DNA of 64,000 nucleotides, taken from positions 192,001 through 256,000 of IMG/VR virus record IMGVR_UViG_3300021431_000075; one strand, given 5' to 3'. The notes under the pieces were generated by a model. That model was not told the DNA's origin and ran no database searches. It worked only from the letters and a program-made list of their open reading frames with translations. This document shows, piece by piece, positions 5,766-49,728 of this stretch (its first letter is position 1; each line of letters starts with the position of its first letter). The DNA is from a virus (lineage: Duplodnaviria; Caudoviricetes). The position numbers and the translations under genes were made by a program.

Positions 5766-5897
5766 TTTATTAACGGCTCCTATATGAAAAGAGCTGTACT
5801 CTTTTTCAGGTTACAAATATAGTTCTTTTATTCGGAACCAGCAAGAAATATAAAAATAATTTAACATTTATTTGGATTGTCTCACATCTTTCAAATT

Positions 5898-5965
5898 AAA
5901 AAACCTGCGCGCTTCACAGCGCACAGGCACAAAAATAATCTAAATCTTAAATTACCATGAAAAAC
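5898..5965 (-). ncRNA. Putative sRNA unit A1 (GUGA-loop terminator family)
   Basis: -7 TAACTTTGCA (rc 5970-5979), -33 TTGCA (rc ~5998-6002), hairpin 5904-5927 with GUGA loop followed by a U-run. Confidence 0.7.
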
Positions 5966-6022
5966 ACTTTGCAAAGTTAATAACTTTATTTCATTCATGC
6001 AAGAAAAAATCAAAAAAATAAT

Positions 6023-6093
6023 AAAAAATCCGGCGCGCTGTCACAGCGAACCGGATTCAAAAAAAAACTTTTTAATATACTTGCAAAAATTCA
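6023..6093 (-). ncRNA. Putative sRNA unit A2
   Basis: -7 TATCTTTGCA (rc 6098-6107), -33 TTGTC (rc 6126-6130), hairpin 6027-6057 with GUGAC loop plus U-run. Confidence 0.7.
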
Positions 6094-6164
6094 TCGCTGC
6101 AAAGATAGTGATTATTTTTGAACCAGACAACATAAAAACAAGTCTTTTAACTTTAATTAACGCC

Positions 6165-6249
6165 AAAAAAATCTGGCTCGCTATCACAGCGAACCAGAAA
6201 CAAAAGTACTTTTTAAATTCAAATCAACATTATTAATTAAATAATCAAA
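6165..6249 (-). ncRNA. Putative sRNA unit A3
   Basis: -7 TATATTTGCA (rc 6254-6263), -33 TTGCA (rc ~6282-6286), hairpin 6172-6198 with GUGAU loop plus U-run. Confidence 0.7.
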
Positions 6250-6310
6250 ACTTTGCAAATATAGCGATTTTGATTTTTCTGTGCAAGAAAATAATACATT
6301 TTTATGAATT

Positions 6311-6388
6311 AAAAAAACCGGCGCGCTGTCACAGCGAACCGGCTAAAAACATAAAACCTAAGAGTAATGATAGTATGTTTGCCTTTCA
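6311..6388 (-). ncRNA. Putative sRNA unit A4
   Basis: -7 TATATTTGCA (rc 6393-6402), -33 TTGTC (rc 6421-6425), hairpin 6318-6342 with GUGAC loop plus U-run. Confidence 0.7.
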
Positions 6389-6444
6389 ACTCTGCAAATA
6401 TATAGACTTTTTTCGAAACTGACAAGAAAAAACAAAAAAATTTC

Positions 6445-6538
6445 AAAAAAAAAAAATGTCCGCGCGCTGTCACAGCGAACGGACACAACCAAATATGTAT
6501 TGTAATCGTTCACATATTTAATAGAAATATCCATCAAA
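6445..6538 (-). ncRNA. Putative sRNA unit A5 (imperfect promoter, abuts the IS607 left end)
   Basis: Hairpin 6457-6485 with GUGAC loop plus a long U-run; only an imperfect -7 element (ATTATTTGCA, rc 6543-6552). Confidence 0.55.
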
Positions 6539-6614
6539 AATATGCAAATAATTTTAAACTATTGTAGTAAAAATCAGTAACATTAATGGTTAAAACTTTT
6601 TAAACATAAATGTT

Positions 6615-7205
6615 ATGGATTACTACATAAAGTTATCAGACTATGCGAAGCGTTTCGGAGTGACATACCGGACTGCATGGAACCGCTACAAGCGCGGACA
6701 GTTTCCAGATGCTATAATAGACGAGACGAATCACATTTGCATACCAATCAAGCATTTTGTAAGCGATGAAAACATCTCTGTTGCAGTGTATGCACGCGTA
6801 TCTTCGTCAGAGAATAAGAGTAATCTTGACAGCCAAGCAGAACGTCTTGTGAACTATTGCATGGCTCGCGGCTACAAGGTTTCAAAGGTCGTAAAGGAAG
6901 TCGGTTCGGGGTTGAACGACGAGCGACCGAAGCTTGACAGTTTATTGAAGGACAGAAGCATAAAAATCATAGTCGTTGAACACAAGGACCGCTTCTCAAG
7001 ATTCGGTCTCAATTACATACAGACTCTGTTGAGCATGGATGACAGGAAGATAGAGATAGTTAACGAGTCTGGCGATGACAAGGAAGACTTGATGCAGGAC
7101 TTTGTCTCTATAGTGACTTCATTTTGTGCAAGGCTCTATGGGTTGCGTAGGAATAGAAGAAGGACAGAGAAGTTGATTCAGGAACTTCAGAATGAAGATA
7201 AATAA
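6615..7205 (+). CDS. tnpA: IS607 serine-recombinase transposase TnpA
   Basis: N-terminal HTH (LSDYAKRFGVTYRTAWN), YARVSS catalytic motif, EVGSGLN, VEHKDRFSRFG, SFCARLYG. Confidence 0.95.
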   Translation: MDYYIKLSDYAKRFGVTYRTAWNRYKRGQFPDAIIDETNHICIPIKHFVSDENISVAVYARVSSSENKSNLDSQAERLVNYCMARGYKVSKVVKEVGSGLNDERPKLDSLLKDRSIKIIVVEHKDRFSRFGLNYIQTLLSMDDRKIEIVNESGDDKEDLMQDFVSIVTSFCARLYGLRRNRRRTEKLIQELQNEDK

Positions 7206-7266
7206 TAATAGAATAATATAGAAATCTTTATCGAAGATAAATAATATAGAACAATATAGAAATCTT
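7194..7266 (+). repeat. ~35-bp imperfect tandem direct repeat between tnpA and tnpB
   Basis: GAAGATAAATAATAATAGAATAATATAGAAATCTT (7194-7228) versus GAAGATAAATAATATAGAACAATATAGAAATCTT (7233-7266). Confidence 0.85.
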
Positions 7267-7279
7267 CATATAAAATATA

Positions 7280-8977
7280 GTGTCTGAACATAAGCATCAT
7301 AGAAGAAAAGTAGAAAAGAAGTCACAAAGAAAGATTTCTTCAAGTTCTTCTGTCTCTAATTCAAAGAATAAGAAGAAAAGACAGCCAAAGAAGCAGACTT
7401 TTGATGCTATGGGAATAATGCTTCGGATTTATCCGAACAGCAAGACACAGGAAGACTATATACTTCGTTCTTGTGGATGCGCTCGTCTTGTCTACAACAA
7501 GATAGTTGCGGACTATGAGTTGAAGAAAGAGCAAAGCTTAAGAGAATGGAAGAACAGTGAAACAGAGCATAAGTATCCGAAATACGGTTCGAAAGAAGGA
7601 AATGCTGTTTTGAACATGCTTAAAACCAATGAAGATTACTCGTTTCTTAAGGATGTCCATTCGAAGATGCTTCAGCAGGCAGTCTTGAATTTCTCGACCG
7701 CATTGTCAAACCATATAAGGTTCCCAGAGGATTTTGACGAGCCTGTGTTCAAGAAGAAAAGTAGACACAATGATTCGTTCCGCATTCCTATAGATGCGAT
7801 TCCCGGAAGCAATGGCAAGAAAGGAATACAATGTGTATATGGAAACAGAATATCGATTTGCTCTGAACTGACGGACGTTCTGTTTAAGTGCTCAAGACGT
7901 GACGAGAAGTATCTGAACAAGAACCAGAAGAAGATACGAAGCATAACAGTTTCTGTTGCTCCGGACGGGAAGATGTATGCTTCTGTTCTTATCGTTCCGC
8001 GCAATATAGACGTTGAAGATTGCGATATGATATGCGGTCTTGACTTGGGGCTTAAGGAGCATACGATTGAGCATCATCAGAAGATGTTCATTGATGATGA
8101 CGGCTTTGTTTCTCTTGCAGATAGTAATGTTGAGTATGTTCATATGCCGAACTTGAACAACTACAAGGATGAGAACGAAAAAGAACGAATGTTCAACAAG
8201 AACGGCGTTACAAGGCTTGAGCACTACAATAAGAAGTATATACACTGGCAGAAAGTTCTTTCAAGGACAGAGTATAATGCAAATACAAGAACTACATCAA
8301 GAAATAAAGACAACGATAAGAAACGAAACTATGACAGGGATAGTTTTCTAAACAAGAGAAGACTGAAGAATCTTGCACAATACAAGTTGAAGAGGGCAAC
8401 AACCAAGCCGTTCGGCAAGAAGCGCAAGAAGAATACATCCAAGCAAAATACAAATGTTGTATCTGAATGCAACAGACCCGTATGGCAGTACTCATCAAAC
8501 CGCCACGAGCGAATAAGGAAGCGCGCGGCGAAGTGGTCTGCGAAGATAGCGAACAAGAGAAGCGACTACAACCATAAGATTACGACAAGGCTTGTCAGAG
8601 AGAACAAGATGATAGTAACTGAGAACTTGAACGTGAGCGGTATGGTAAAGAACGGGAATCTGTCTAAAGCAATAATGAATGCTGGATGGAGCCAGTTCAC
8701 TCAGTTCTTGTCATACAAGGCTGAACGGTACGGAAGAATATACTACAAGATTGGAACATTCGCTGCATCTTCAAAGACCTGTCCGGTATGCGGGCACAAG
8801 TACAAGGAACTTACGCTTGCAGAGCGTGTGTGGACTTGCAAGAACTGCGGTGCTGTCATAAACAGGGATGAGGGTGCAAGTGACAACATAGTTTCGTTCG
8901 GAATAGAAGGATACAACGAGAAGCATCGAGCAGAACTTGACGAGCTTCGAATGAAAGACAGAGAACCAGAACTCTAA
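7280..8977 (+). CDS. tnpB: RNA-guided endonuclease TnpB (IS607), enlarged by insertions
   Basis: RIYP/GCARLVYN N-terminus, RuvC-I GLDLG, RuvC-II VTENL, Zn finger CPVC..CKNC, RuvC-III NRDEGASDNI. Confidence 0.93.
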   Translation: MSEHKHHRRKVEKKSQRKISSSSSVSNSKNKKKRQPKKQTFDAMGIMLRIYPNSKTQEDYILRSCGCARLVYNKIVADYELKKEQSLREWKNSETEHKYPKYGSKEGNAVLNMLKTNEDYSFLKDVHSKMLQQAVLNFSTALSNHIRFPEDFDEPVFKKKSRHNDSFRIPIDAIPGSNGKKGIQCVYGNRISICSELTDVLFKCSRRDEKYLNKNQKKIRSITVSVAPDGKMYASVLIVPRNIDVEDCDMICGLDLGLKEHTIEHHQKMFIDDDGFVSLADSNVEYVHMPNLNNYKDENEKERMFNKNGVTRLEHYNKKYIHWQKVLSRTEYNANTRTTSRNKDNDKKRNYDRDSFLNKRRLKNLAQYKLKRATTKPFGKKRKKNTSKQNTNVVSECNRPVWQYSSNRHERIRKRAAKWSAKIANKRSDYNHKITTRLVRENKMIVTENLNVSGMVKNGNLSKAIMNAGWSQFTQFLSYKAERYGRIYYKIGTFAASSKTCPVCGHKYKELTLAERVWTCKNCGAVINRDEGASDNIVSFGIEGYNEKHRAELDELRMKDREPEL

Positions 8978-9110
8978 AAACTGGCTGCCCTTGAGTTCAG
9001 GGAGACGGGACGTGGAGATGACCTATAGGAAAACGCATTCTTTGAATGGACATGTGAGTACCAAGTCACCGATGAATCGTCAAAAGAAAGTAAACATACG
9101 GGATTCTATG
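8978..9110 (+). ncRNA. Putative TnpB omega/reRNA scaffold
   Basis: Lies directly 3' of tnpB; CCCTTGAGTTCAGGG hairpin, then GTGGAG ... CGATGAA motifs that resemble IS607 TnpB reRNAs. Confidence 0.6.
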
Positions 9111-9297
9111 AATTTCTATGTTCTACAGAACTATAGAACACAAAAATTGAAAATTCCCAAATCAATCAATCAGTAATCTCAAGATATCTTCTCACATCAT
9201 CCTTCTTGTAATGGCTCATGATGTAGCCATCTATCTTGTCATACAACTCTGAATAAAGAGCCGAGAACTTATTGCCATTCTTGATTACAGATGACCA

Positions 9298-12069: not shown

Positions 12070-12207
12070 CTAATAGAACTGCGCGACGTATTTCTTGTAA
12101 TCATCGTCTATAATCATTCTCACATATCCTTCATCCGCATTCAACATTTCCGCAATCTCTTGGACAGAGGTTCCGCAACGCCATAGCATTAAAATCTGAT
12201 CATCCAT
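12070..12207 (-). CDS. Small HTH DNA-binding protein
   Basis: MDDQILMLWRCGTSVQEIAEMLNADEGYVRMII fits an HTH pattern; start reassigned to 12207. Confidence 0.6.
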   Translation of the reverse strand: MDDQILMLWRCGTSVQEIAEMLNADEGYVRMIIDDDYKKYVAQFY

Positions 12208-12279
12208 TTGTTCTATATATTTAAGAGTTAAAAACAATACAATGTCTATATATTGTACTACTACATCACAAAATAGTTT

Positions 12280-12352
12280 AAAAAAACTGCGGATGCTATC
12301 ACAGCACCCGCAGCCCAACATACTTTTAAAATTATAATGAAAAAATCAAATG
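12280..12352 (-). ncRNA. Putative sRNA unit B1
   Basis: -7 TATCTTTGCA (rc 12357-12366), -33 TTGCA (rc ~12385-12389), hairpin 12287-12313 with GUGAU loop plus U-run. Confidence 0.7.
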
Positions 12353-12399
12353 TTGCTGCAAAGATATGAACTTTTTTTCATCCGTGCAAGAATTTATAT

Positions 12400-12484
12400 A
12401 AAAAAAAAAAGCGATCGTTATCACAACGACCGCTCACGAAAATCAAATTGCATAATCACTTAATAAATGCTACAAAAGCTTTAC
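12400..12484 (-). ncRNA. Putative sRNA unit B2
   Basis: -7 TATCTTTGCG (rc 12489-12498), -33 TTGCA (rc ~12517-12521), hairpin 12410-12434 with GUGAU loop plus U-run. Confidence 0.7.
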
Positions 12485-12553
12485 TCGCCGCAAAGATATG
12501 AACTTTTCACAAAATATGCAAGAGTTTGCTTCATTTTTTTCCAAACAATCAAC

Positions 12554-12630
12554 AAAAAAGCCGCTACTTATCACAAGCAACGACTCTCCCTTTTTTAACA
12601 ATTAACAAAATTATAACACCACGATTTATA
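12554..12630 (-). ncRNA. Putative sRNA unit B3 / terminator of the upstream MTase gene
   Basis: Hairpin 12559-12585 (AGUCGUUGCUU GUGAU AAGUAGCGGCU) with three G-U pairs on the minus strand; no clear promoter of its own. Confidence 0.55.
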
Positions 12631-12648
12631 GCAAAAAAGTTTTCATCA

Positions 12649-16521: not shown

Positions 16522-18753
16522 TTAAACAAAACTTATATATTTGCCAGAATAGTCAACATATGCAGCAGGACCTATACGGACAACGCCATCCCTGTCAACA
16601 ACAGGTCTGAACCTTATCCACTCGTCAAGCAGCTGCTTGCCTCCAGCATCAAATATGTTGTACATAAAATAGTCATAACTTCCGGTTTTCTCTATGGCAA
16701 CCAGCTCGTCAGGAACAAGCGTGTATATCTGCGTCAGTCTTTCTCTTTCGCCAATCTTCGGACTCATTAGTTTTCCGCTCTTGTATGCAAGGACATCACA
16801 ATAAATCTTCGGACTCATTAGCGTTCCGCCCTTGTATGCAAGCACATCACCGTCGTTCTTGTCAAGCCGCGTGACGAACACGAAACCGTTTTCAGCCTTT
16901 CCTTTATATAAGAACCATTCATCGGAAACCAGCCTTAATGTCTTGTCATTAATGAAGTTGAGCATCCTTCCGCTATAACCACTGTCCAACGAGTCGTCGC
17001 CGGACTTTGCAACCGTCAAGAAACCGTCATCGCAGACATCACAGTACTTCAGATTGTCCTGAACAATCCCCTTTCCCCATTCTATCACCATAGTAGGGCT
17101 TCCAAGTTCACGCACAGCAGCAACAAGATTCGGACCTACGCAGTTTACAGAATAGAACCATTCATCAGAGCATTTCACTCCGGTACTGCTTACAAGTGTT
17201 TTCTTTGCATCATTCTTGAACCACTTCATGACTTCATAGAATTTGAAGTCGCCAAACCCCAAGTTAACCGAAACGTCATCGAAGCATTCCCCGCCAAAAA
17301 GCACTTTTCCGGACCCGGTGTCCATGAACTGCCAGCAACCGTTCTTCTTGAAAGCGTATATTCCACACTCTGGCCAGCCGCAGACATCGTCGAACCATTC
17401 ATCGGAAACAGGAGTTCCGTCTTCTCTCACAAACCTGCATGTGAAATCTGTGCCGTATGCGACTTTCGCGAAACCATTCTCCATAGCGTTGCTCTTTCCG
17501 GGAATCCAATTCTCCAACACAAGAGTGCCGTCCCTGTGGACGTAGTTGCTCTTTTTCCGAACCGGAATCCCGTGCTCATTGTAACACTCTCCTTCCTTAC
17601 AAGATCTGCAGACCAGTGCGACATCGCGCTTCTTTCCATGTCCAAAATCAATAAACTCATACCACTCGCTACATACGGGCTTTCCTGTCTTGTCAATGAA
17701 GTTGTACAATTTGTCCTTCATCACAACCGCGACACCATCAACGAAGTTCTCCATCCAGTCATAATTCTCCTTGCACAAAAACGTCCCGTCCGTTGACAAG
17801 AAATTGAACTCCTTGGAACCGCCGCGCTTGACCCATGCATATCCTTCGAAAAACAAAGGAGAACAACCCAAGAAATCTTCATTCGATAGAACTCTGCCGT
17901 CCATCGTGATATAGTTGCAGCATCCTTCCGTGAACTTGACATACAGCAAACCATCGGCGCAGAACTTAGGTCCGTACTTGAATTTCGGCAATACCACGCC
18001 GATGTCGCTCAATATGGTTCCGGACGAGTCAACCAGCGACATGCTCTCGCTCCCGACCCCTGTTCCGAAAGTTGTCACCACATATCTGCTGCCGGCTTCG
18101 TCAACCGCATCCATAAGCCTGATGCGGGAAGCGGCACGGACAAAGCTTCCCTGGAGCTTGCTGACATTCTCCTTGTTCAGAACCCCGTCATCGCCACCTG
18201 CATAGAAGGACCATATGTTCTCGTCGTACGCGATGCATATTGCATATCCGGTCCGCTCATGGTTGTCCCGGCTTACCAGCTCGCTTGCAACCATGCGCAC
18301 GTTGCGGTTTTTCATACACACATTGCTTGACATGAGAACATCAATCATGGATGCAGCCATGAACGCGAATGAATCTTCATCAGAATGGTCATTGCACACA
18401 TACATGACAAATCCAAGATTCTTTGCCCGGCATAACATCACGGACGCGTCCTGACGAGAACGGCTTGTTGAATAAACGCCGATAATCTTCGAGCAATCGT
18501 TATCAAGAAACTCCATATCCGCATCCCATCCGTCAACATATCCGAGATTCTTCATTCTTTCAAGAACCGGCTCCATGACAGAACCATAAAAAATCTCATT
18601 GATTGCGGACTTGTCATTATCGTCAACATCGAAACTGAAAACGAACTCATAGCACGAGCCGGACTGTTCCTGCATATCGTCCACAACTTCATCAGTTTCC
18701 ACATCACCAAGCAGGGACTCGTTCATGCATATGATTTCCGGATGTTCTTTCAT
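16522..18753 (-). CDS. WG-repeat protein, paralog 1 of 8
   Basis: Start reassigned to MKEHPE (18753). NESLL N-terminus; repeats F.EG.A.V...YNFI...G...WF. Confidence 0.85.
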   Translation of the reverse strand: MKEHPEIICMNESLLGDVETDEVVDDMQEQSGSCYEFVFSFDVDDNDKSAINEIFYGSVMEPVLERMKNLGYVDGWDADMEFLDNDCSKIIGVYSTSRSRQDASVMLCRAKNLGFVMYVCNDHSDEDSFAFMAASMIDVLMSSNVCMKNRNVRMVASELVSRDNHERTGYAICIAYDENIWSFYAGGDDGVLNKENVSKLQGSFVRAASRIRLMDAVDEAGSRYVVTTFGTGVGSESMSLVDSSGTILSDIGVVLPKFKYGPKFCADGLLYVKFTEGCCNYITMDGRVLSNEDFLGCSPLFFEGYAWVKRGGSKEFNFLSTDGTFLCKENYDWMENFVDGVAVVMKDKLYNFIDKTGKPVCSEWYEFIDFGHGKKRDVALVCRSCKEGECYNEHGIPVRKKSNYVHRDGTLVLENWIPGKSNAMENGFAKVAYGTDFTCRFVREDGTPVSDEWFDDVCGWPECGIYAFKKNGCWQFMDTGSGKVLFGGECFDDVSVNLGFGDFKFYEVMKWFKNDAKKTLVSSTGVKCSDEWFYSVNCVGPNLVAAVRELGSPTMVIEWGKGIVQDNLKYCDVCDDGFLTVAKSGDDSLDSGYSGRMLNFINDKTLRLVSDEWFLYKGKAENGFVFVTRLDKNDGDVLAYKGGTLMSPKIYCDVLAYKSGKLMSPKIGERERLTQIYTLVPDELVAIEKTGSYDYFMYNIFDAGGKQLLDEWIRFRPVVDRDGVVRIGPAAYVDYSGKYISFV
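16753..16850. repeat. 51-bp in-frame tandem duplication
   Basis: Encodes DVLAYKGGTLMSPKI / DVLAYKSGKLMSPKI. Confidence 0.9.
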
Positions 18754-18766
18754 ATCTTGTCTATAA

Positions 18767-20956
18767 TTATATAATGCTTGTGAAATTTCCAGAGTAGTCA
18801 ACAAACGCCGCAGGACCCACTCTTACAATGCTGTCCCTATCTGCCACAGGCCGGAACCTTGTCCATTCAGAAAGCAGTTGCCTTCCGTCAGCGTCGAACA
18901 GGTTGTACAGCATGGACTTGTTATCGTCGTCAAAAATCTCTACAACGACCAGCTTGTCCGGAACGACTGTGTATATCCGGTTCAACTTCTTTCTTTCCTT
19001 TCCGAACAACAGCACACCATTGCAAGTCAGCACGTTGTTAGTATTCACGACCACGAACCCGCTCTGCATCTTTCCGGATCGATCAAGCCAAGAATCAGAA
19101 ACAAAACTTCCATCCGGCCTGATATAATTGATTTTTTCATCCCCGTGCTCATCCTTCATCTTCACTTTCGCATATCCGCCGATAAAATGTTCACAATCGG
19201 TCAGGTTGTCAACAATAACACCGCCGCCCCACTTGGCAACCGTGCGCATTCCGTATAGTATATTACTATAGCAAACACAATCATAACCGATATATTTCAC
19301 AAAGGGCTTATAGTCATCCACGCACTTCTTTCCATCATCAGAAACAAGATTGTACATGTTCCTGTTGTCAGTTCCGCTACCGATACTCGTCACCAAATAG
19401 AAAGTCTTGTTGAAATCCTTGCTATACACCTCACGATCAACGTCATCGAACATCTCGCCGTCAAAGAGAACCTTGTTCGTACCAGCATCCATAAACTGCC
19501 ACATGTCATATCCGTTGGACTGTCTCTTCTCGAAAGCAAAGACTCCGTTCTGCGGATAGCCGCACACGTTCTTGAACCACTCCTTCGACACGAGGCTTCC
19601 GTCCGCCCTCATGAAATTATAGAGACCGTCATTGTTGCTCAACTTCGCGAACCCATTCGCCATATTTCTGGACGATTTCGAAACCCACTCGTCCAGAAGA
19701 AGGTTGCCGTCCACGTCAGCATAGTTGCTGACAAAACCGAGATTGTTAGAAGAACCGTCATGCTTGTAGACATGCATGATGCCGTTGTCTCCGATTTCGA
19801 CGAGGTCGTACCAAGTGCTCCACCTCAGGACGCCCTTGTTGTCGATGATGTTCTTTTTATCGTTGTACCCGACAACCGCATATCCGTTCTTAAAATCGGA
19901 AGCATATGAAAACTGCTTTCCGCCAAGTACGTTTCCGTCCTTGTCAAAGAAAGACCAAACGCCGGGCCTGATATTCACCCACACATATCCGTCGTTGAAG
20001 CAAAATCCGCATCCGATACAGTTCTTTCCCAAAAGCAGCGAGCCGTCCTTCCTGATGAAGTTATATGATTCGGAGAAAAATGATATGCGCATAAGACCGT
20101 TGTCGAGGAACCTGCCCCATATAAACTGCCTGATGCTGTTGCACGGATATCTGCCCAGCACTTCCCCTTCCGAAGAAAGCAGCATCGCTGCAAGACTATC
20201 AACAGATTCGCCGAAAGTCAATGCCATATACCTGCTTCCCTCGTCATCATCGGCTTTCATGAGACCTATCATGCCGGCGGTCCTGACAAACTTGCCAGCA
20301 AACGACTCACAAACATCCCGGTCCAGATTTCCGCCATAATCACCAGCATAGAACAGCCACTTGTGCCTGAACATATCCTTCTGTACTTTCTGGAAATCTA
20401 TGTCGCCGACATCATCACTATCAAGACTTCCCACATAGCGGCGGATGACACAGAACTGCATGACCGCAGAGTCGTCAACCAGCTTGTCAACAACAAGACG
20501 AACTCCGGCATGCAAATCACAAAGACCGCCGAGAACAAGAGCATGAATCAGACTCGCGCAAACCGTTCCGAAAGAGTCTCCGCGCGCATCAGAGTTGTCA
20601 AGCCAGATGTCCATCGCGAACGTCGAGGAACCCCTCTTCTTATCCTTGTTCTCCATAAAGCACTTCGAATAAGTCTTGAGAATATCAAACCGAGATATAG
20701 ACTCAATCTTCTTATAGAACTTCCACGACTTGACAAAACCCTTTCCTCGCATCCTCTGAAGCCCGGATTCCATCAACTCGAAGAATATGTTCTTAATCAT
20801 CTGCGTTGTAAAAGAATGAATAGAATAAGTATTGAAGTCGAAAGTGAACCTGAAGCACACGTTGTCTGCAAATTCATTCTCATCAACATCAAGCACTTCG
20901 TCGCTGCCGATGTTGTCAAGCAGAGACTCGTTCAGATATATCGGTAACTTTTCCAT
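18767..20956 (-). CDS. WG-repeat protein, paralog 2 of 8
   Basis: LNESLLD N-terminus, WG-like repeats, shared C-terminus YNLFDADG..LL.EWT.F...VGP..VDYSG. Confidence 0.85.
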   Translation of the reverse strand: MEKLPIYLNESLLDNIGSDEVLDVDENEFADNVCFRFTFDFNTYSIHSFTTQMIKNIFFELMESGLQRMRGKGFVKSWKFYKKIESISRFDILKTYSKCFMENKDKKRGSSTFAMDIWLDNSDARGDSFGTVCASLIHALVLGGLCDLHAGVRLVVDKLVDDSAVMQFCVIRRYVGSLDSDDVGDIDFQKVQKDMFRHKWLFYAGDYGGNLDRDVCESFAGKFVRTAGMIGLMKADDDEGSRYMALTFGESVDSLAAMLLSSEGEVLGRYPCNSIRQFIWGRFLDNGLMRISFFSESYNFIRKDGSLLLGKNCIGCGFCFNDGYVWVNIRPGVWSFFDKDGNVLGGKQFSYASDFKNGYAVVGYNDKKNIIDNKGVLRWSTWYDLVEIGDNGIMHVYKHDGSSNNLGFVSNYADVDGNLLLDEWVSKSSRNMANGFAKLSNNDGLYNFMRADGSLVSKEWFKNVCGYPQNGVFAFEKRQSNGYDMWQFMDAGTNKVLFDGEMFDDVDREVYSKDFNKTFYLVTSIGSGTDNRNMYNLVSDDGKKCVDDYKPFVKYIGYDCVCYSNILYGMRTVAKWGGGVIVDNLTDCEHFIGGYAKVKMKDEHGDEKINYIRPDGSFVSDSWLDRSGKMQSGFVVVNTNNVLTCNGVLLFGKERKKLNRIYTVVPDKLVVVEIFDDDNKSMLYNLFDADGRQLLSEWTRFRPVADRDSIVRVGPAAFVDYSGNFTSII

Positions 20957-20973
20957 CTCTTGTCTAATTCACA

Positions 20974-23133
20974 TTATATCAAGCATGCGATCTCACCAGA
21001 GCAGTCAACATAAGCACCAGCGCCGACCCTTATGATTCCGGACTTGTCAGCAGCAATCCAGAAATTCGTCCATTTGTCAAGCAACTGGTCACCTTCGCAG
21101 TCGAATATGTTGTACAGTCGACCCTTTTTGACTTCCTTCTCCACAATGACAACCTTGTCCGGGACAACCGCCTGCACCCTTTTCAATATGCCGTCGCAAC
21201 CGTCAAGCAGAAGTTTGCCGTTACTGCACAGCACGTTGTATTCCAGTTTTCCGGACTGCGCATAATTCACTATGCAAAAACCGTCATTCAACGTTTCTTC
21301 TGTATACAAGAACCACTTATCCGACACAAGCCGGCATTCCTTGTCGATAAAGTTGTACTCGATGTCCCCGACGCCCTTTCTGCGTCGCTCAACCCTTGCA
21401 TATCCTCTTTTGTAACATCCGATATTCTTGATGTTCTCAAGCATCACGTCGCCGCCCCATTTAGCGACCATCGTCGGAGACGTCTCATACATCCTTGCGG
21501 CAACCATGCCGTTTCCAATATCCTGCATATACTCAAACATACCGTCCATAGCCTTGACACCGTCCTTCGAAATCAAGTTCATGGCAAAAGACCGGCTTCT
21601 TCTTTTATCGCCATCATGCAAAGTATAATTTTCAACAGTATAGTTATCTTCACCCACGCCCAAGTGAACATTGTCAAACTCCTCTCCGCCGAACAGAGGC
21701 TCCAGCGTATCCACGTCCATAAACCTCCACTTATCATCAGGCGCATATTTGTACGCTATCACGCCACGTTCCGGACAGCCGAGAACTTGCGCGAACCATC
21801 GTCTGGACAAAAGATTTCCATCTTGCTTCAGATAGTTGTAAGCATCCCTTCTCTTATCCCAAAGCAATGCGAAACCGTCCTCCATAGGCTCGCAATCATA
21901 GTCAACCCATTTTCTCATAATCGTCTTGCCGTCCATGTCTATGTAATTATACAACGAATCGCCTTTGACTTTCTTTCCAACTCTGAATATCATACCAGAA
22001 GTTCCTGTTCCGGGTTCTATATCTTCATACCACTTTCTAAAGATGGTCTTTCCGCTCGTGTCGATGACGTTTTCCTTGCCATTGTCGTTGACCACGGACA
22101 ATCCGCCATCAAACTCGCTCATATGGCTAAACCATTTATTACATAGAATATTTCCGGCGGCATCAACCATGTTGTTGTGCGAGTTGCCGTCTTCAACCAG
22201 CGCGTATCCGTCTGAGAAAGTCTTGCTACACTCGTTATAATCCCTATCCGACAACAGGGTTCCGTCCTTGCGGATAAAATTATATAAACATCTTTCGAAT
22301 TTCACATATAGCAAGCCGTTGTCAAGAAACTTCGGACCGTAATCAATTTCGTCCAGATTCCCAGGATAAGATGCAATCATTCTGCCGTCCCGTCCGAACA
22401 TATAAAATTTATCATTATTGTTCATATCATAATGCAATAGCGCGAACAGCACTATGTATATGCCAGTCTCATCATCGACCGCCGACATCAATCCTGAGGA
22501 AGAAGCTGTCCTAACAAAGCCGCCGGCAAATGAAACGCATGCGCTCCGGTCAATATTCATGTCATCTTTTCCCGCATAAAAATACCATTCCTTGTTTTCA
22601 AAATACACGCACCGGATTTCATCTGTTTCGCTACCGTTCTCGAATCTTGTCAATCCGAGCCTTACCCCATAATCCCCCGACATGATGCCACTTGACTTAA
22701 ATGAAAATAACAGCACTCCGCTAACATATCCAAGCACATCCTCACTGAACGAACGACTGTCAAAAACAACATGCACGGAAAATGTGTCTGTATTCTTGTA
22801 GTATTTCTTTGCAGGTTGATAATTATGCATGTACCTTGAAAACCTATCAATAAAATTCGAAAGAGCGGACGAGCCGAACTTATTGTCAACCTTCTTGATG
22901 CAAGTCCACGACCTGACAACTCCCTTCCTCGCCATTGTTGCAAGCACAGGCTCTATGACCGTGTCGAAGAACATGCTCTTGACATTCAAAATGTCACTTC
23001 TGAAATTGAACGAGAACTTATACTCGACTACGTTTCCGTTGTCAAAATCGTCATTGTCGTCAGTCACCTCGTCTATGCCGATGCCGTCAAGCAGGGACTC
23101 GTTCAAATATGCGCTATATGGATAATCTCTCAT
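20974..23133 (-). CDS. WG-repeat protein, paralog 3 of 8
   Basis: Same architecture as the neighbouring paralogs. Confidence 0.85.
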   Translation of the reverse strand: MRDYPYSAYLNESLLDGIGIDEVTDDNDDFDNGNVVEYKFSFNFRSDILNVKSMFFDTVIEPVLATMARKGVVRSWTCIKKVDNKFGSSALSNFIDRFSRYMHNYQPAKKYYKNTDTFSVHVVFDSRSFSEDVLGYVSGVLLFSFKSSGIMSGDYGVRLGLTRFENGSETDEIRCVYFENKEWYFYAGKDDMNIDRSACVSFAGGFVRTASSSGLMSAVDDETGIYIVLFALLHYDMNNNDKFYMFGRDGRMIASYPGNLDEIDYGPKFLDNGLLYVKFERCLYNFIRKDGTLLSDRDYNECSKTFSDGYALVEDGNSHNNMVDAAGNILCNKWFSHMSEFDGGLSVVNDNGKENVIDTSGKTIFRKWYEDIEPGTGTSGMIFRVGKKVKGDSLYNYIDMDGKTIMRKWVDYDCEPMEDGFALLWDKRRDAYNYLKQDGNLLSRRWFAQVLGCPERGVIAYKYAPDDKWRFMDVDTLEPLFGGEEFDNVHLGVGEDNYTVENYTLHDGDKRRSRSFAMNLISKDGVKAMDGMFEYMQDIGNGMVAARMYETSPTMVAKWGGDVMLENIKNIGCYKRGYARVERRRKGVGDIEYNFIDKECRLVSDKWFLYTEETLNDGFCIVNYAQSGKLEYNVLCSNGKLLLDGCDGILKRVQAVVPDKVVIVEKEVKKGRLYNIFDCEGDQLLDKWTNFWIAADKSGIIRVGAGAYVDCSGEIACLI

Positions 23134-23152
23134 CGCCTTTTCGTCAATTCAA

Positions 23153-25372
23153 TTATATTATGCTTATCGTTTTTCCGGAATAGTCAACATACGAGCACGA
23201 ACCGACCTTTATGATTCCGCTTCCCGCATCGGCTATCCTGAACTTTGTCCACTCGCCAAGCAGCTGCTTTCCGTCAGCATCGAACAGGTTGTACACGACA
23301 TTGCTGCCCCTGTCCATCGCCTTGACAACAACCAGCTCGTCAGCAACCACCGCATATATATGTAGTAGTGCCATCTTCGACGACTTGCAGTCGAATATGA
23401 TGTTTCCGCTCCTGCAAGCCAGCACTCCGACACTGGCGCTGTCCCGAGTCATCCTGACAACAGCGAAGCCGCCGTGCGAGACTTCGTAAACACGTTCGAA
23501 CCAGACACCGGACACGAGTTTTCCGTCCTCTCCTATGAAGTTGTACTTGCCTTCGAGAGATTTCACCTTCGCATAACCATCAGAGAACTCTTCCATACCT
23601 ATGACATTCCTGTCAATGAATACTCCGTTGGAACCCCACTTCAAGAGCATAATCGAACGGCATTCCGCGCTCATCAAGACAGACGCGAATCCGTTGCCCA
23701 TATACTTGACTTGCATGAAGCCGGAACCGCTGCAGCACATGACACCGTCTGCGGAAATCAGGTTGCACAACTTTCTGCCCGGATGTTTCGGATCATTAAG
23801 CGTCACTTCATAGTACATGAATCCGTCTTTCCCGCTCTTGGTACACACGCTCCAAAAAGCGGTTCCGCCGAACAAGACACTGTTCGTTTCTGAACTCCTG
23901 AACTCCCACATCAACAATCCGTCTTCATGCTGGACGAGAGCGGCAAATACTCCATGTTCAGGCCATCCGCACACGCCTTTGAACCAGTCTTCAGACACAA
24001 TGCTTCCGTCAGACCTCATGTAGTTGTAAACTTTATATGTTCCATCAGACTTGCACAACTTCGCGAAACCGTTCTTCATCACATCGCAGTCTCCGAGAAT
24101 AAACTTGTCAAGAAGGAGTTTGCCGCTACGGTCAATGAAATTGCACCCGCGTCTGTCGCTGTCATTGCCGATATCTACCACCAGCGCGACGTCACGCCTG
24201 CAACTGACTCCCGGTTCGGGAGAATCATAACTGATACTGTCATACCACTCTCTGGAAATGAACTTGCCGCTCGTGTCAACAACGTTCATCTTCATTTTCG
24301 AGTCGGTTGAACCGCTGCCGAACAGTCTGGTCACCAGAGCGAGTCCGTCCACGAAGTTGCCGACATGCCAGCACCACTCGTCAAGCAGCGTGTTTCCGTC
24401 ACTGTCTATCAGGTTGTACTCGTTCAACACACCTCCAGTTTTCCGGCTGACAGCGGCATAGCCGTCAGGAAAGCTCTCCGAACCGCTGGCAAGATTCCCC
24501 TCAATCAACATGCTCCCGTCCATCTTCAGGTAGTTCACCCTGTTCTCTTCCAGCTTCACGTACATCAGTCCGTTGTCAAGGTACCTCCCGTTCTTTGCAT
24601 TGTAAAGCTCGACCATGTACTGCTCGAGAACATTGCCGCCGGAATCGATGACGAACATGTTCTCGTCGCCCGTGTTCTTTCCGAACGAGTATGCAACATA
24701 CCGGCTCGCATTGTCATCCACAGATTCCATGATTCCGAGCGTCCTTGCAATCCTGACGAAGCATCCAGCAAGCCTCGAACTGCCGAAGTTCTCGTTGTTT
24801 CCGTCCTCTCCGCAATGGAAGATCCACCTGTTACCAGAATCATAGAACACGCAGTAGTTATATTGATGCGAAGAATTGTCATTGTCCGTCTTCCAGAATG
24901 CCATCCTCACGAAACCGTTGTCCGAGACGCCGCTTGCAATGACATACTGCATCATGCGCGCTGCAATCTCGCAAAGGCACTCGGCATTCTCATCATCCGT
25001 CGGAACACAGACGCGAACAGACCGGACTACCGCCTTCCTGTTGTATGCTGCTTTCGCAGACATGCCGTAAATCCGTTCCGCATACGCGTCGATGAGCGGA
25101 AACTCATCCTGAACGTAATTCATATCGTCCAAAGACCATGAACCGACATTCCCTCTTGACCTCAGCATATCAAGAACAGGCTCCATGCAGGTGCCGAAGA
25201 ATATGTTATTGACAGCATGGGTTCCATACTCGCTCTTGGAGTTGAAATGGAACATGAACCTGTACTCGGCAGTCCGTTCATGACCGTTCGATTCGTCATT
25301 CACCTCGTCGGTCTCCACCTTGTCAAGCAGGGTCTCGTTCAGCGCGTATATGTCATTCAAAAACCTTCTCAT
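23153..25372 (-). CDS. WG-repeat protein, paralog 4 of 8
   Basis: Same architecture as the neighbouring paralogs. Confidence 0.85.
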   Translation of the reverse strand: MRRFLNDIYALNETLLDKVETDEVNDESNGHERTAEYRFMFHFNSKSEYGTHAVNNIFFGTCMEPVLDMLRSRGNVGSWSLDDMNYVQDEFPLIDAYAERIYGMSAKAAYNRKAVVRSVRVCVPTDDENAECLCEIAARMMQYVIASGVSDNGFVRMAFWKTDNDNSSHQYNYCVFYDSGNRWIFHCGEDGNNENFGSSRLAGCFVRIARTLGIMESVDDNASRYVAYSFGKNTGDENMFVIDSGGNVLEQYMVELYNAKNGRYLDNGLMYVKLEENRVNYLKMDGSMLIEGNLASGSESFPDGYAAVSRKTGGVLNEYNLIDSDGNTLLDEWCWHVGNFVDGLALVTRLFGSGSTDSKMKMNVVDTSGKFISREWYDSISYDSPEPGVSCRRDVALVVDIGNDSDRRGCNFIDRSGKLLLDKFILGDCDVMKNGFAKLCKSDGTYKVYNYMRSDGSIVSEDWFKGVCGWPEHGVFAALVQHEDGLLMWEFRSSETNSVLFGGTAFWSVCTKSGKDGFMYYEVTLNDPKHPGRKLCNLISADGVMCCSGSGFMQVKYMGNGFASVLMSAECRSIMLLKWGSNGVFIDRNVIGMEEFSDGYAKVKSLEGKYNFIGEDGKLVSGVWFERVYEVSHGGFAVVRMTRDSASVGVLACRSGNIIFDCKSSKMALLHIYAVVADELVVVKAMDRGSNVVYNLFDADGKQLLGEWTKFRIADAGSGIIKVGSCSYVDYSGKTISII

Positions 25373-25385
25373 TTCGCATATTCGA

Positions 25386-27647
25386 TTATATCAGACCGGC
25401 TATCTTGCCGGAACGGTCAACATATGAGCACGGACCGACCTTCAGCAGTCCGCTCCTGTCAAGAGCGATACGGAACGCGGTCCACTCGTCAAGCAGCTGC
25501 TTTCCGTCAGCGTCGAACAGGTTGTACTTCTTGTCACCCTTTTCATCCGCGCACTCGACAACGACCAGCTCGTCCGGAACGGCTTCATACAGCCGAATCA
25601 GATTCAAGCCAGAACCGGCCAATCTGGAACCGTTCGTGCCGAACACGCGCTTTCCGGTCTTGCAGACAAGAACATCCGACACATTGTCATTCTTGACGGC
25701 GACAAAGCCGCCTCTCATGTATGTGCTTATGTTTTCGAACCAGATGTCTGAAACAAGATTGCCGTCCCTGTCTATGATATTCTCTTTCATGTCTCCGGAC
25801 GACACGACCCGCGCGTATCCGTATTCGTCAAACCTGTTTATGAACGAGACCTGCATGCCGAGATCAACCGGTCCGGCTCCCCACTTCCACAGCACCGTGT
25901 CTCCGGACCGCAACTGGACAGAAGCGAACCCGTTCCCGACATACTGTATTCTGGTGGCGTCATCCATGCCGCAGCACGCCTTGCCGTCAGCGGAAACCAT
26001 GTTCTGAAAAGTCTTCATGGAATACCCGTTCTGATAGCCGTGAAACGTCCACGTCCCGTTCTCTTTCGAATATATATGGTCGACATGGTACATCTTGGCG
26101 CCGTCATCCGCTTCGATGACATCAAGCTTGCCGAACTTGTATCCCTCAAGCACCGTCCTGCCGGTCTCCGTTTCCATGAACCGCCACTCGTCACAGCCTC
26201 TAACGAAAGCGAATACTCCGCACTCGGGCCAGCCGCACACGTCATCGAACCACTCTTCCGAAACAAAACTTCCGTCCTCCCTTATGTAGTTGTATGTTTT
26301 TGTTCCGTCCTCGTTTATGCACACGCTGGCGAACCCGTTCGACATGCAACCGCAGCCGCCATTGAACCATTCCTTAAAGAGCATCTTTCCACTCCTGTCC
26401 ACATAGTTGTACTCCCAACAATTGGACAGGCTGTCATACCTTCCGACCTTCGCGACATCGCGCTTCCGGTTCGGATTCACGGCTCTCTTCCTGTTTGCAG
26501 AATCATCGAACGCGACATACTCGTACCAGTCGTCAAGAATCGGCTTTCCGCTCCTGTCTATGATATTGCTATTGCATATCTTGCGTTCATCGTCGTATCT
26601 GGTTATCACGGAAAGACCGTCAACGAAGTTCTCCGCGCCCAAAATCCAGTCTCCAAGCAAAGAATTGCCATCCTTGTCTATCAACTTGGCACTCGTCGTA
26701 CCTGACTTGTTCTTTATCCGGATCGAGATGAATCCCTCCGAGAAACTGTCCTCGCATTCGTCAAACATATAGTCCAGCAGGAAAGTTCCGTCCATCTTCA
26801 GGAAATTCATCTCTCTGTTAAAGTTCATGTACATAGACACTGCCATCAGTCCGTTCTCATCGAATCTTCCGAACTTCGAGTCTGTTATGCCGGCTTCATG
26901 CTCGAACAGCAATCCGCCGGAAGAGTCAAACATGTACATCCTTTGCTGCGAAGCCATCCTGCTGAAACCGTATGCCACATACCTGCTTCCGGCGTCGTCG
27001 ACCGGCTCGATGATTCCCATGCGACCCGCAATCCTGATGAAGCTTCCGGCGAACTTCACGCAGCCCTTTTCGAGGTTGTACCCTTTCCGACCGCAATGGA
27101 ACACCCATTTCGCACCGTCGTCGCAGAACACGCAGCAAACGTTATCATCGCCGATTTTCCAGAAAGCCATCCGGACCCCGCCCTCCGTGCATATCCCGCC
27201 CGCCATGACTGACCGCATCATATGCGCGGCTATGGTCACGAGACCGTCAGCGGTCTCGGAATCCTTCGGGATGCTGACATCGACAGACAGCACGCTCGAA
27301 TCCTTGAACTTCCTCTTCGCGCTCCCGTACATGTCCTTCGAATAGAAGTCGAGGTTCGGAAAGTCGTCAGGCTTGCCGAGCTTCCTGATGAACTTCCAAG
27401 AATCGGCAAGCTCCATGTTCTTCAGTCTGCAGAGCGCCGGCTCCATGCACGTGTCGAAGAACATGCTCTTGACAGCGGCAGCTCCCAGGCCGCTCTTGAA
27501 ATGGAACATGAACCTGTACTCGACAGGACCGTCGATGCTGGCATCCTCGTCATCCCTCACTTCATCATTCTCGACGCTGTCAAGAAGCGACTCGTTCACT
27601 GCGTATATGCCATTCGGAAACTTTCCCATTGCCTGTTTCGTTTTCAT
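25386..27647 (-). CDS. WG-repeat protein, paralog 5 of 8
   Basis: Same architecture as the neighbouring paralogs. Confidence 0.85.
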   Translation of the reverse strand: MKTKQAMGKFPNGIYAVNESLLDSVENDEVRDDEDASIDGPVEYRFMFHFKSGLGAAAVKSMFFDTCMEPALCRLKNMELADSWKFIRKLGKPDDFPNLDFYSKDMYGSAKRKFKDSSVLSVDVSIPKDSETADGLVTIAAHMMRSVMAGGICTEGGVRMAFWKIGDDNVCCVFCDDGAKWVFHCGRKGYNLEKGCVKFAGSFIRIAGRMGIIEPVDDAGSRYVAYGFSRMASQQRMYMFDSSGGLLFEHEAGITDSKFGRFDENGLMAVSMYMNFNREMNFLKMDGTFLLDYMFDECEDSFSEGFISIRIKNKSGTTSAKLIDKDGNSLLGDWILGAENFVDGLSVITRYDDERKICNSNIIDRSGKPILDDWYEYVAFDDSANRKRAVNPNRKRDVAKVGRYDSLSNCWEYNYVDRSGKMLFKEWFNGGCGCMSNGFASVCINEDGTKTYNYIREDGSFVSEEWFDDVCGWPECGVFAFVRGCDEWRFMETETGRTVLEGYKFGKLDVIEADDGAKMYHVDHIYSKENGTWTFHGYQNGYSMKTFQNMVSADGKACCGMDDATRIQYVGNGFASVQLRSGDTVLWKWGAGPVDLGMQVSFINRFDEYGYARVVSSGDMKENIIDRDGNLVSDIWFENISTYMRGGFVAVKNDNVSDVLVCKTGKRVFGTNGSRLAGSGLNLIRLYEAVPDELVVVECADEKGDKKYNLFDADGKQLLDEWTAFRIALDRSGLLKVGPCSYVDRSGKIAGLI

Positions 27648-29809: not shown

Positions 29810-29827
29810 CTTTCCATATCGTCTCGA

Positions 29828-32032: not shown

Positions 32033-32047
32033 CTTCTCTATTGTCGT

Positions 32048-49385: not shown

Positions 49386-49548
49386 TATGTACAGGTACAT
49401 TATTTGTTATCATATATTGAAAATTATATAAAATATATGATTGTTTAACATCATTTAACAAGTAATATTACAATCCTGATTTCTTTTATTGCTATATTTG
49501 CATCATGTTTTTAAATCAAAACAATATGAACAGTTGCTATGACATAAT

Positions 49549-49648
49549 AAAAAAGAAAGAATCGCTCAATGAACGACTCTCTCTAATGCGAAAACGCAAC
49601 GGTAAAATTCGTAAAGAATAAACCTTATTGCGAATCACTTGCATACAT
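49549..49648 (-). ncRNA. tracrRNA
   Basis: 5' anti-repeat AUGUAUGCAAGUGAUUCGCAAU complementary to the CRISPR repeats, then AAGG nexus, hairpins and terminator plus U6. Promoter TACCTTTGCA (rc 49651-49660) with TTTG ~20 bp upstream. Confidence 0.88.
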
Positions 49649-49728
49649 GGTGCAAAGGTAAGCATATTGTTCGGTTCATGCAAATATAATTACAAGAATA
49701 TTTCATTCATTAATAATTTTTAACAAAA

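What the first reader, a model, noticed from the sequence alone, without database searches (positions are those of the whole stretch)
5898..6552. Array of five modular small-RNA cassettes (promoter, variable body, conserved-loop terminator): best candidate for an undescribed system
Seen in sequence: ~125-150-bp units on the minus strand. Each has a Bacteroidota -33/-7 promoter (TTG..TAnnTTTGCA; imperfect in A5), a ~40-55-nt U-rich body that differs between units, and a GC hairpin plus U-run. Stems change with compensatory pairs (CCUGUGCGCU/AGCGCGCAGG, UCUGGUUCGCU/AGCGAGCCAGA, UGUCCGUUCGCU/AGCGCGCGGACA) while the loop stays GUGA(N). There is no credible ORF. Established: Bacteroides thetaiotaomicron has a tandem paralogous sRNA cluster (FopS, bound by RbpB) that represses translation. 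Inference: the phage carries its own bank of guide-like sRNAs, with a constant protein-binding handle and a variable seed, transcribed by host RNAP.
Basis: partly seen in the sequence, partly recalled or inferred. Interest (0 to 1): 0.9.

Follow-up and report, generated by a model that had tools for sequence, protein, structure and literature searches.

The report
Phage rows of small-RNA genes
A 673-kb rumen phage carries two rows of tiny stand-alone RNA genes built like its host's FopS regulatory RNAs. One keeps that family's target-recognition end, so the phage probably blocks translation of chosen host genes, but no transcript or target has been shown.

Summary
The feature is real but needs correcting. 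Window 5895-6425 (minus strand) holds four complete cassettes, A1-A4: a Bacteroidota promoter, a 37-53-nt U-rich body, a covarying hairpin and a U-run.

The fifth unit, A5, is not a cassette. Its hairpin is the terminator of an upstream gene, cut off from that gene by a 2,634-bp IS607 insertion (6498-9131). Its "promoter" and "body" are IS DNA.

A second row of two or three units lies at 12276-12634. A covariance model of the hairpin finds only these eight sites in the 673-kb genome.

- **A1 is FopS-like.** It has the R1 seed, 15 of 15 nt, but scores 37.8 bits against an Rfam cut-off of 56. A relative with about 75% identical flanks keeps that seed while the linker diverges.
- **The bodies look constrained.** Among close relatives they vary less than the spacers (6/258 against 30/238 sites).
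- **The repertoire turns over.** The more distant clade has the same architecture with different bodies.
- **The loop is G-N-G-A** across relatives, not a fixed GUGA handle.

Best reading: host-RNAP-transcribed, FopS-scaffold small RNAs that act on translation starts. This is a new variant of a known kind. Expression and targets are untested. This scan has noted similar arrays in other Bacteroidota jumbo phages.

The parts
5814..5844 (-). Promoter of the downstream early operon (133-aa and 79-aa proteins, D12 methyltransferase, 560-aa protein)
   Evidence: Pattern match. Highly conserved in relative L178.
5972..6002 (-). Promoter of A1
   Evidence: The -33 and -7 boxes are conserved in L178.
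5895..5967 (-). A1: 73-nt FopS-like sRNA with the R1 seed at its 5' end, an AU-rich linker, a GUGA-loop terminator and a U-run
   Evidence: Rfam RF04319: 37.8 bits over model positions 1-71. Fold. Seed 15/15 conserved in L178. Identical in L207-L209.
6100..6130 (-). Promoter of A2
6022..6095 (-). A2: candidate sRNA of about 74 nt, seed unrelated to FopS
   Evidence: Present in L207-L209. Truncated by an IS200/605 element in L040.
6256..6286 (-). Promoter of A3
6165..6251 (-). A3: candidate sRNA of about 87 nt
   Evidence: One body substitution and one pair-preserving stem change among relatives.
6395..6425 (-). Promoter of A4
6310..6390 (-). A4: candidate sRNA of about 81 nt
6447..6486 (-). 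'A5' hairpin plus U-run: a terminator of the same hairpin family that belongs to the upstream gene, not to an sRNA cassette
   Evidence: L040 and L207-L209 place it directly after a small gene. Joint 6497->9132.
6498..9131 (+). IS607-type insertion (serine-recombinase TnpA 6615-7205, TnpB 7280-8977) that splits the gene from its terminator
   Evidence: Pfam. Absent in L040, L207-L209 and a sheep-gut contig.
12606..12634 (-). Promoter-like site of B3, directly after the stop codon of the N6/N4 methyltransferase gene
12553..12601 (-). B3: 49-nt unit. Ambiguous: either a very short sRNA or the terminator of the methyltransferase gene.
12491..12521 (-). Promoter of B2
12398..12486 (-). B2: candidate sRNA of about 89 nt
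   Evidence: Body identical in L207 and L209; loop GUGA becomes GGGA there.
12359..12389 (-). Promoter of B1
12276..12354 (-). B1: candidate sRNA of about 79 nt with an internal U-rich stretch followed by CAU (anti-start-codon-like). Weak FopS likeness.
   Evidence: Rfam FopS 24.3 bits, E 0.32. The unit at the same position in L178 starts with a 10-nt R1-like seed.

Best explanation
The two rows are banks of independently transcribed, protein-less small-RNA genes in the host-RNA-polymerase-transcribed early region of a 673-kb rumen phage. The phage has a terminase gene and direct terminal repeats, and probably infects Prevotella-like Bacteroidales.

Each gene has the build of the host FopS/GibS sRNAs: a sigma-ABfr-type promoter, a single-stranded U-rich 5' part, a GNRA-type-loop intrinsic terminator and a U-run.

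Unit A1 keeps the FopS/GibS R1 seed. By analogy with FopS, it should pair with the start-codon region of host mRNAs (in B. thetaiotaomicron, those of SusC-like outer-membrane transporters) and block translation initiation. The other units (A2-A4, B1, B2, perhaps B3) use the same scaffold with different 5' parts and would act on other mRNAs.

The repeated promoter and terminator modules also make the rows recombination-prone. Units, genes and insertion sequences come and go between relatives.

Shown: the anatomy, hairpin covariation, FopS likeness of A1, seed conservation, and lower variability of bodies than spacers. Inferred: transcription, action in trans, anti-start-codon mechanism, and host targets.
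For: - Promoters and terminators are clustered far above chance.
- The hairpin family is confined to the two rows. CM R1 gives 8 hits of 42-52 bits and the next best is 21.6. Of 82 predicted terminators in the genome, 9 have a (G)UGA loop and 8 of those are in the rows.
- Covariation is strong.
- A1 matches RF04319 over all 71 model positions, and its first 15 nt are identical to the consensus.
- FopS occurs above cut-off in rumen Prevotella genome bins (MAGs), which also share the inner hairpin sequence.
- BLAST of the array against 301 genomes of that host family hits mainly the A1 promoter plus seed.
- In L178 (flanks 70-80% identical) the last unit keeps the seed 15/15, the promoter boxes and the hairpin, while the linker and spacers diverge.
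- Among relatives about 94-97% identical, variable sites are 6/258 in bodies against 30/238 in spacers (Fisher p = 8e-6). The A1, B1 and B2 bodies are identical although the flanks differ by about 6%.
- The anti-start triplet CAU is enriched in 14 bodies: 14 against 6.9 expected, P about 0.006.
- FopS biology is taken from PMC11697453.
Against: - There is no expression evidence. The RNA-run contigs that were laid do not cover the rows, and contigs could not show small RNAs anyway.
- A1 is below the Rfam gathering score (37.8 against 56) and departs from the extended R1' seed after nt 15.
- Bodies other than A1 do not align between clades, so long-term constraint on them is unproven.
- No target was found, either in phage translation starts or by simple anti-seed patterns in candidate hosts.
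- Units are individually dispensable. L040 has lost the A1 seed and the A2 terminator, and L180 lacks row A.
- The variation statistic rests on only three lineages, and much of the spacer variation sits in one tract.
Confidence: 0.6

Rival explanations
1. PeSL-like regulatory modules. The selected things are the repeated terminator-promoter composites, which insulate and drive early transcription and serve as recombination sites for module shuffling. Only A1, and perhaps B1, is a working sRNA. The other 'bodies' are empty or residual cargo.
For: - The same junction (A2 terminator to A1 promoter) is empty here, holds a promoter plus a 314-aa gene in L207-L209, and holds an IS200/605 element in L040.
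- Unit number differs between clades: 4, 6 or 0.
- Non-A1 bodies do not align between clades.
- Another phage lineage (L010, L025, L036) uses the same inner hairpin in a repeated terminator-promoter module between genes.
- The PeSL concept comes from PMC2839356.
Against: - Bodies are the least variable class among close relatives (2.3% against 12.6% in spacers).
- CAU is enriched in the bodies.
- This hairpin family flanks no ordinary ORFs elsewhere in the genome, unlike the roughly 50 PeSLs per genome that sit mostly in front of ORFan genes (ORFs with no known homologs).
- Every unit keeps a full promoter and a strong terminator about 40-55 nt apart.
Confidence: 0.2
2. Cis-acting control of the downstream operons. 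The tandem promoter-terminator units act as attenuators or an antitermination ladder, like the short terminated transcript from lambda pR' that Q reads through, or as an RNA-polymerase sink that tunes early expression.
For: Both rows are co-oriented with an operon and lie directly upstream of it. Each unit ends in a strong terminator.
Against: - The operons have their own conserved promoters after the last terminator.
- No antiterminator or conserved leader element was found.
- The conserved FopS seed in A1 has no role in this model.
- L180 runs the same operon without row A.
Confidence: 0.1
3. DNA-level repeats only: REP-like palindromes, or preferred landing sites for TnpB-carrying insertion sequences.
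For: Two different insertion sequences sit in or beside the row in two close relatives.
Against: - All copies have one orientation.
- Each is followed by a U-run and preceded by a promoter at a fixed short distance.
- There are only eight copies, in two places.
- G-U pairs and compensatory changes fit an RNA hairpin read on the minus strand.
Confidence: 0.05
4. Micro-protein genes: each unit encodes a very short peptide.
For: A2 has a 17-codon frame starting 1 nt after the presumed transcript start and ending at the TGA in the hairpin loop.
Against: - Other units have only 3-10-codon frames.
- A 2-nt insertion in A2 of L207-L209 shifts the frame.
- No frame is shared between units or clades.
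Confidence: 0.03

Closest known systems
FopS (family of paralogous sRNAs, Rfam RF04319) and GibS (RF04182) of Bacteroides thetaiotaomicron; PMC11697453
   Same: - Canonical Bacteroidota promoter.
- Length about 65-75 nt.
- Single-stranded 5' seed followed by an intrinsic terminator whose loop is of the GUGA type.
- A1 has the R1 seed, identical over 15 nt.
- Multicopy.
- Presumed pairing at start codons.
   Different: - A1 is below the Rfam cut-off and departs from the extended R1' seed.
- The middle part and hairpin sequence are different.
- The other five or six units have unrelated 5' parts.
- The genes are tandem and phage-borne, whereas the 14 FopS genes are dispersed on the chromosome.
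- RbpB binding is untested.
Single canonical FopS copies on phage or prophage contigs (one noted in PMC11697453; at least 109 IMG/VR contigs)
   Same: A host-family sRNA gene carried by Bacteroidota viruses, with its own promoter and terminator.
   Different: - Those are single, near-consensus FopS copies, mostly on 30-70-kb human-gut contigs.
- Here there are rows of units with one divergent FopS-like member and several different seeds, on a 673-kb rumen phage.
PeSL (promoter-early stem-loop) cassettes of T4-type phages; PMC2839356, PMC4122927
   Same: - Repeated composites of a strong host-type early promoter and a terminator stem-loop in a plastic early region.
- Gain, loss and replacement of modules between close relatives at these junctions.
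   Different: - PeSLs number about 50 per genome and mostly precede ORFan genes, with the stem-loop within or next to the promoter.
- Here the hairpin family occurs at eight sites only.
- The cargo is 37-53 nt of conserved non-coding sequence.
- One cargo is a recognisable sRNA seed.
Multicopy sibling sRNAs such as Qrr, OmrA/B and LhrC1-7 (as listed in PMC11697453)
   Same: Several paralogous, separately transcribed sRNAs with a shared scaffold.
   Different: Siblings usually share the seed and differ elsewhere. Here the scaffold is shared and the seeds differ.

Membership tests
FopS (Rfam RF04319) | Score at or above the Rfam gathering cut-off (56 bits) | tested here: not met
   A1 37.8 bits, E 8.7e-4 and 1.3e-4 genome-wide. 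B1 24.3 bits. Other units gave no FopS hit. Host genome bins reach 56.5-77.4 bits with the same model.
FopS (Rfam RF04319) | R1 seed at the very 5' end of the transcript | tested here: met
   A1 only. Its first 15 nt equal the family consensus and start 5 nt after the -7 box, as in host copies. The seed is conserved in L178. Not present in A2-A4, B2 or B3.
FopS (Rfam RF04319) | Extended seed R1' (about nt 1-21) that pairs with susC start regions | tested here: inconclusive
   A1 departs from the consensus at nt 16-21. No susC-type match was found with a 16-nt anti-seed pattern at up to 2 mismatches in two candidate host bins.
FopS (Rfam RF04319) | About 65-70 nt: unstructured 5' stretch plus Rho-independent terminator, canonical sigma-ABfr promoter, no ORF | tested here: met
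   A1 is 73 nt. Fold, promoter, no conserved ORF.
FopS (Rfam RF04319) | Bound by RbpB in the 5' part; represses SusC translation | not testable with these tools
   Needs EMSA, CLIP and reporter assays. The phage itself has no RRM_1 protein.
PeSL regulatory cassettes | Composite of a host-type early promoter and a terminator stem-loop, repeated in a plastic region | tested here: met
   Each terminator is followed within about 25-45 nt by the next promoter. The region differs between relatives by insertions of whole modules.
PeSL regulatory cassettes | Dozens per genome, mostly immediately upstream of ORFan genes | tested here: not met
   The CM finds the hairpin family at eight sites in two rows only. 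Cargo between modules is 37-53 nt without an ORF. One relative does carry a 314-aa gene as cargo at one junction.
CRISPR-type repeat-spacer array | Identical direct repeats flanking spacers, transcribed as one precursor | tested here: not met
   Every unit has its own promoter and terminator. The repeats are hairpins of varying sequence.

The most novel reading that the evidence does not exclude
The rows are a fast-turnover 'seed library'. A fixed promoter and a fixed GNRA-loop terminator act as exchange points, so that whole seed modules are swapped between phages and hosts. That would give each phage clade its own set of anti-start-codon RNAs aimed at different host mRNAs (surface transporters, receptors or defence genes), with the FopS-type unit as the conserved founding member. 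Giant Bacteroidota phages would then reprogramme host translation with a multi-guide RNA battery rather than with proteins.
Probability: 0.25. Interest if true: 0.8.

Novelty: new variant of a known kind. Interest (0 to 1): 0.6.

Why it matters
Regulatory RNAs of gut and rumen Bacteroidota have only recently been charted, and FopS is their best-understood family. It shuts off SusC-type glycan transporters.

A giant phage with a conserved FopS-seed RNA plus several scaffold-sharing RNAs with other seeds would mean that phages use the host's own post-transcriptional control of the cell surface and of nutrient uptake. SusC-like proteins are also plausible phage receptors, so one candidate purpose is exclusion of superinfecting phages, or avoiding loss of progeny to lysing cells. 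That purpose is my inference.

The rows also give a compact, testable set of natural seed variants on one scaffold. They show how promoter and terminator modules make an early region recombine.

If the units prove silent, the finding reduces to a PeSL-like plastic region with one captured host sRNA.

Tried and rejected
- **Expression.** Two metatranscriptome runs (X19, X20) were laid as contigs. They cover phage genes and IS copies but not the rows. Contigs cannot show small RNAs, so this says nothing either way. The very high depth at 6304-6554 comes from short low-complexity or hairpin matches of other organisms.
- **Phage self-targets.** RNAduplex of six bodies against 640 predicted phage translation starts gave minima of -16 to -24 kcal/mol, no better than 9 shuffles each. 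Short-word BLAST of the bodies against the genome gave only 12-15-nt chance matches.
- **Host targets.**
  - The B1 anti-seed pattern (18 nt, up to 2 mismatches) gave counts that look similar, by eye, to those of its reversed control in 81 host-family genomes.
  - The A1 anti-seed in two rumen Prevotella bins hit mainly the FopS genes themselves and no SusC start.
  - A first Pfam call failed on wrong coordinates.
- **Host homologs of A2-A4.** BLAST in 301 genomes gave only promoter-like and AT-rich chance matches. Three apparent A3 matches have no promoter or terminator context.
- **Relatives.** There was no blastn match in INPHARED phages. Protein-pattern scans of IMG/VR found nothing. Most exact-pattern hits for the hairpin core are chance matches in GC-rich genomes.
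- **Neighbouring proteins.** No PHROG or Pfam function was found for the genes next to the rows, apart from the methyltransferases. The phage has no RRM protein.
- **UUAA+G motif.** It occurs 11-28 nt before the hairpin in 6 of 7 bodies against 1.2 expected. I chose the motif after seeing the sequences, so it is only a lead.
- **SrcF of Segatella copri.** The preprint text gave no sequence to compare.

Full report
**What the DNA is.** The window is bases 192,001-256,000 of a 673,114-bp virus record with direct terminal repeats and 40.6% G+C. The record encodes a large terminase. Near-identical DNA occurs in sheep, cattle and goat gut metagenomes. The flagged stretch lies between a minus-strand operon and a plus-strand pair of genes. 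The operon encodes 133-aa and 79-aa proteins, a D12 adenine methyltransferase and a 560-aa protein. The plus-strand pair is an IS607-type serine recombinase and a TnpB.

**Checking the observation.** On the minus strand I confirm five G+C-rich hairpins, each followed by a U-run. I also confirm five Bacteroidota-type promoters (TTG, 17-23 nt, TAnnTTTG) within 612 bp; the whole genome has only 176 such matches on both strands.

- Four promoters each precede a hairpin by 37-53 nt (units A1-A4). The fifth drives the operon.
- The stems covary strongly: 93.8% of cells pair against 65% in shuffles, 10 of 12 pairs change on both sides, and slid controls give 28-46%.
- A crude genome-wide terminator scan finds 82 terminators. 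Nine have the (G)UGA loop and eight of those lie in the two rows described here.
- A covariance model of the hairpin scores those eight at 42-52 bits and nothing else above 21.6 bits.
- A second row of three units (B1-B3) lies at 12276-12634, upstream of a 45-codon ORF and the next operon.

**The fifth unit is not a cassette.** Contig L040 is 96-97% identical to the window, and it joins window 6500 to 9132. A sheep-gut contig shows the same joint, 6497->9132, skipping 2,634 bases. Relatives L207-L209 show it too. So 6498-9131 is an IS607 insertion. A5's 'imperfect promoter' and most of its 'body' are the left end of that element. In the uninterrupted form the hairpin directly follows a small gene and is its terminator. 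B3 may likewise be the terminator of the methyltransferase gene that ends just before it.

**What the units are.** A sensitive Rfam search matches A1 (5967-5895) over the whole FopS model at 37.8 bits. The cut-off is 56, and E is 8.7e-4 for the 1-kb search. Its first 15 nt, GUGUUUUUCAUGGUA, equal the FopS/GibS R1 seed and begin 5 nt after the -7 box, as in host genes.

FopS RNAs are 65-70-nt sRNAs of B. thetaiotaomicron. They have canonical promoters, a single-stranded 5' seed and an intrinsic terminator. They block translation of SusC-like transporters by pairing at the start codon. RbpB footprints their 5' part and counteracts them.

Rumen Prevotella genome bins carry FopS above the cut-off (56.5-77.4 bits). 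They also share the inner hairpin sequence of the phage units, with different outer stems. BLAST of the row against 301 genomes of that family hits mainly the A1 promoter plus seed. No other unit matches FopS or any Rfam family convincingly; B1 reaches 24.3 bits.

**Evidence from relatives.** Three depths of comparison were available.

1. *Close relatives* (L040 and L207-L209; 94-97% identical flanks).
   - All units are present. The junction between A2 and A1 is empty here, holds a promoter plus a 314-aa gene in L207-L209, and holds an IS200/605 element in L040. That element has removed the A1 seed and the A2 terminator.
   - Variable sites: 6/258 in bodies, 10/246 in promoters, 9/204 in hairpins, 7/53 in U-runs and 30/238 in spacers. 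Bodies against spacers gives p = 8e-6.
   - The A1, B1 and B2 bodies are identical although the flanks differ by about 6%.
   - An A2 indel breaks the only plausible micro-ORF.
   - One loop changes from GUGA to GGGA.
2. *A more distant clade* (L178, L210, L212; flanks 70-80% identical).
   - The same positions hold six and two units respectively.
   - The loops are GUGA or GCGA.
   - The last unit of row A keeps the promoter boxes, the seed (15/15) and the hairpin, while the linker and spacers diverge.
   - The last unit of row B starts with a 10-nt R1-like seed.
   - All other bodies fail to align above shuffles. With the tight conservation within the clade, this points to replacement of whole modules rather than slow drift.
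3. *Still more distant relatives.* One clade at 68% protein identity lacks row A. Clades at 49% or less have no such units near the gene.

**Mechanism.** The best-supported reading is a set of trans-acting sRNAs made by host RNA polymerase early in infection, on the FopS scaffold. For A1 the likely action is the FopS one: pairing across the start codon of host mRNAs. For the rest there is only indirect support. That support is the low variability of the bodies, a two-fold excess of the anti-start triplet CAU in 14 bodies (14 against 6.9, P about 0.006) and the shared architecture.

I found no targets. Phage translation starts pair no better than with shuffled RNAs, and simple anti-seed patterns in candidate hosts were uninformative. 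Expression could not be assessed.

**The loop.** Across relatives the loop is G-N-G-A with an optional pyrimidine, closed by U-A. That is what a stable GNRA-type terminator loop looks like. Together with RbpB's 5' footprint on FopS, it argues against the loop being a specific protein handle, though this is untested.

**Rivals.**
- The strongest rival treats the repeated terminator-promoter composites as PeSL-like regulatory and recombination modules, with only A1 functional as an RNA. The module-sized differences between relatives fit it. The conserved bodies, and the confinement of the hairpin family to the rows, do not.
- Cis attenuation, DNA-only repeats and micro-ORFs fit less well; see the rival entries.

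**Comparison and novelty.** A1 works like FopS and probably descends from it, but it fails the Rfam threshold and part of the extended seed, so I file it as FopS-like. Phage carriage of FopS is not new. The FopS paper mentions one phage, and I find a promoter plus canonical FopS on at least 109 IMG/VR contigs.

Three things are not described in the papers I could search: tandem rows, one scaffold carrying several different seeds, and module-wise turnover of units in a giant rumen phage. Earlier notes of this scan report similar rows in other Bacteroidota jumbo phages. Those notes are unchecked leads, not evidence. They do suggest the arrangement is recurrent.

**Verdict.** This is a new variant of a known kind, with interest 0.6.

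Noticed in passing
window 6498-9131: A complete IS607-type element (TnpA 6615-7205, 565-aa TnpB 7280-8977) is inserted between a small gene and its terminator. It is absent from close relatives and from a sheep-gut contig, so the insertion is recent. Many diverged copies of its genes occur in the gut RNA and DNA runs that were laid.
   Followed up: partly
L040:7836-9855 (replaces window 5956-6078); similar copy at genome 132847-134894: An IS200/IS605 element (Y1 TnpA plus a 470-aa TnpB-like protein) sits in the same row in a 96%-identical relative. It removes the A1 promoter and seed and the A2 terminator. Two different TnpB-carrying elements therefore landed within 600 bp in sister genomes.
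   Followed up: partly
L207:10684-11628, L209:10708-11652: In other close relatives a self-promoted 314-aa gene (faint phosphoribosyltransferase hit) sits between A2 and A1, at the junction that is empty in this window.
   Followed up: no
L010, L025, L027, L031, L036 (IMG/VR and ENA contigs, about 49% G+C): An unrelated phage lineage repeats a roughly 150-bp intergenic module between genes. The module is a terminator with the same 19-nt inner hairpin, followed by a promoter. It looks PeSL-like.
   Followed up: partly
L019 and L037 (human-gut Bacteroidales contigs): A very short FopS-like gene in which the R1 seed is followed almost at once by the same inner hairpin as in phage units A2, A4 and A5. 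This links that hairpin to the R1-seed family.
   Followed up: no
L050, L052 (rumen Prevotellaceae bin G002): Host sRNA-like genes with the FopS middle part and a GUGAU-loop terminator but a different 5' end. Hosts too have scaffold-sharing variants with other seeds.
   Followed up: no
window 12070-12207 (minus): A 45-codon ORF right after row B has weak likeness to sigma-70 region 4 / helix-turn-helix (E 0.006) and its own terminator at about 12020-11975. It is conserved in L207 and L209.
   Followed up: partly
window 49520-49720 (genome about 241,520-241,720, minus): A lone promoter, a 64-nt body and a terminator of a different hairpin type: a possible further sRNA gene.
   Followed up: no
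window 16522-34246 (minus): Eight tandem paralogous genes of 719-760 aa. A relative's copy has a faint WG beta-repeat hit.
   Followed up: no
genome 176-304 kb, minus strand: 36 of the 96 minus-strand host-type promoter matches fall in this 19% of the genome, many sharing a TTGCACGG-type -33 region. This is probably the host-polymerase-dependent early region.
   Followed up: no
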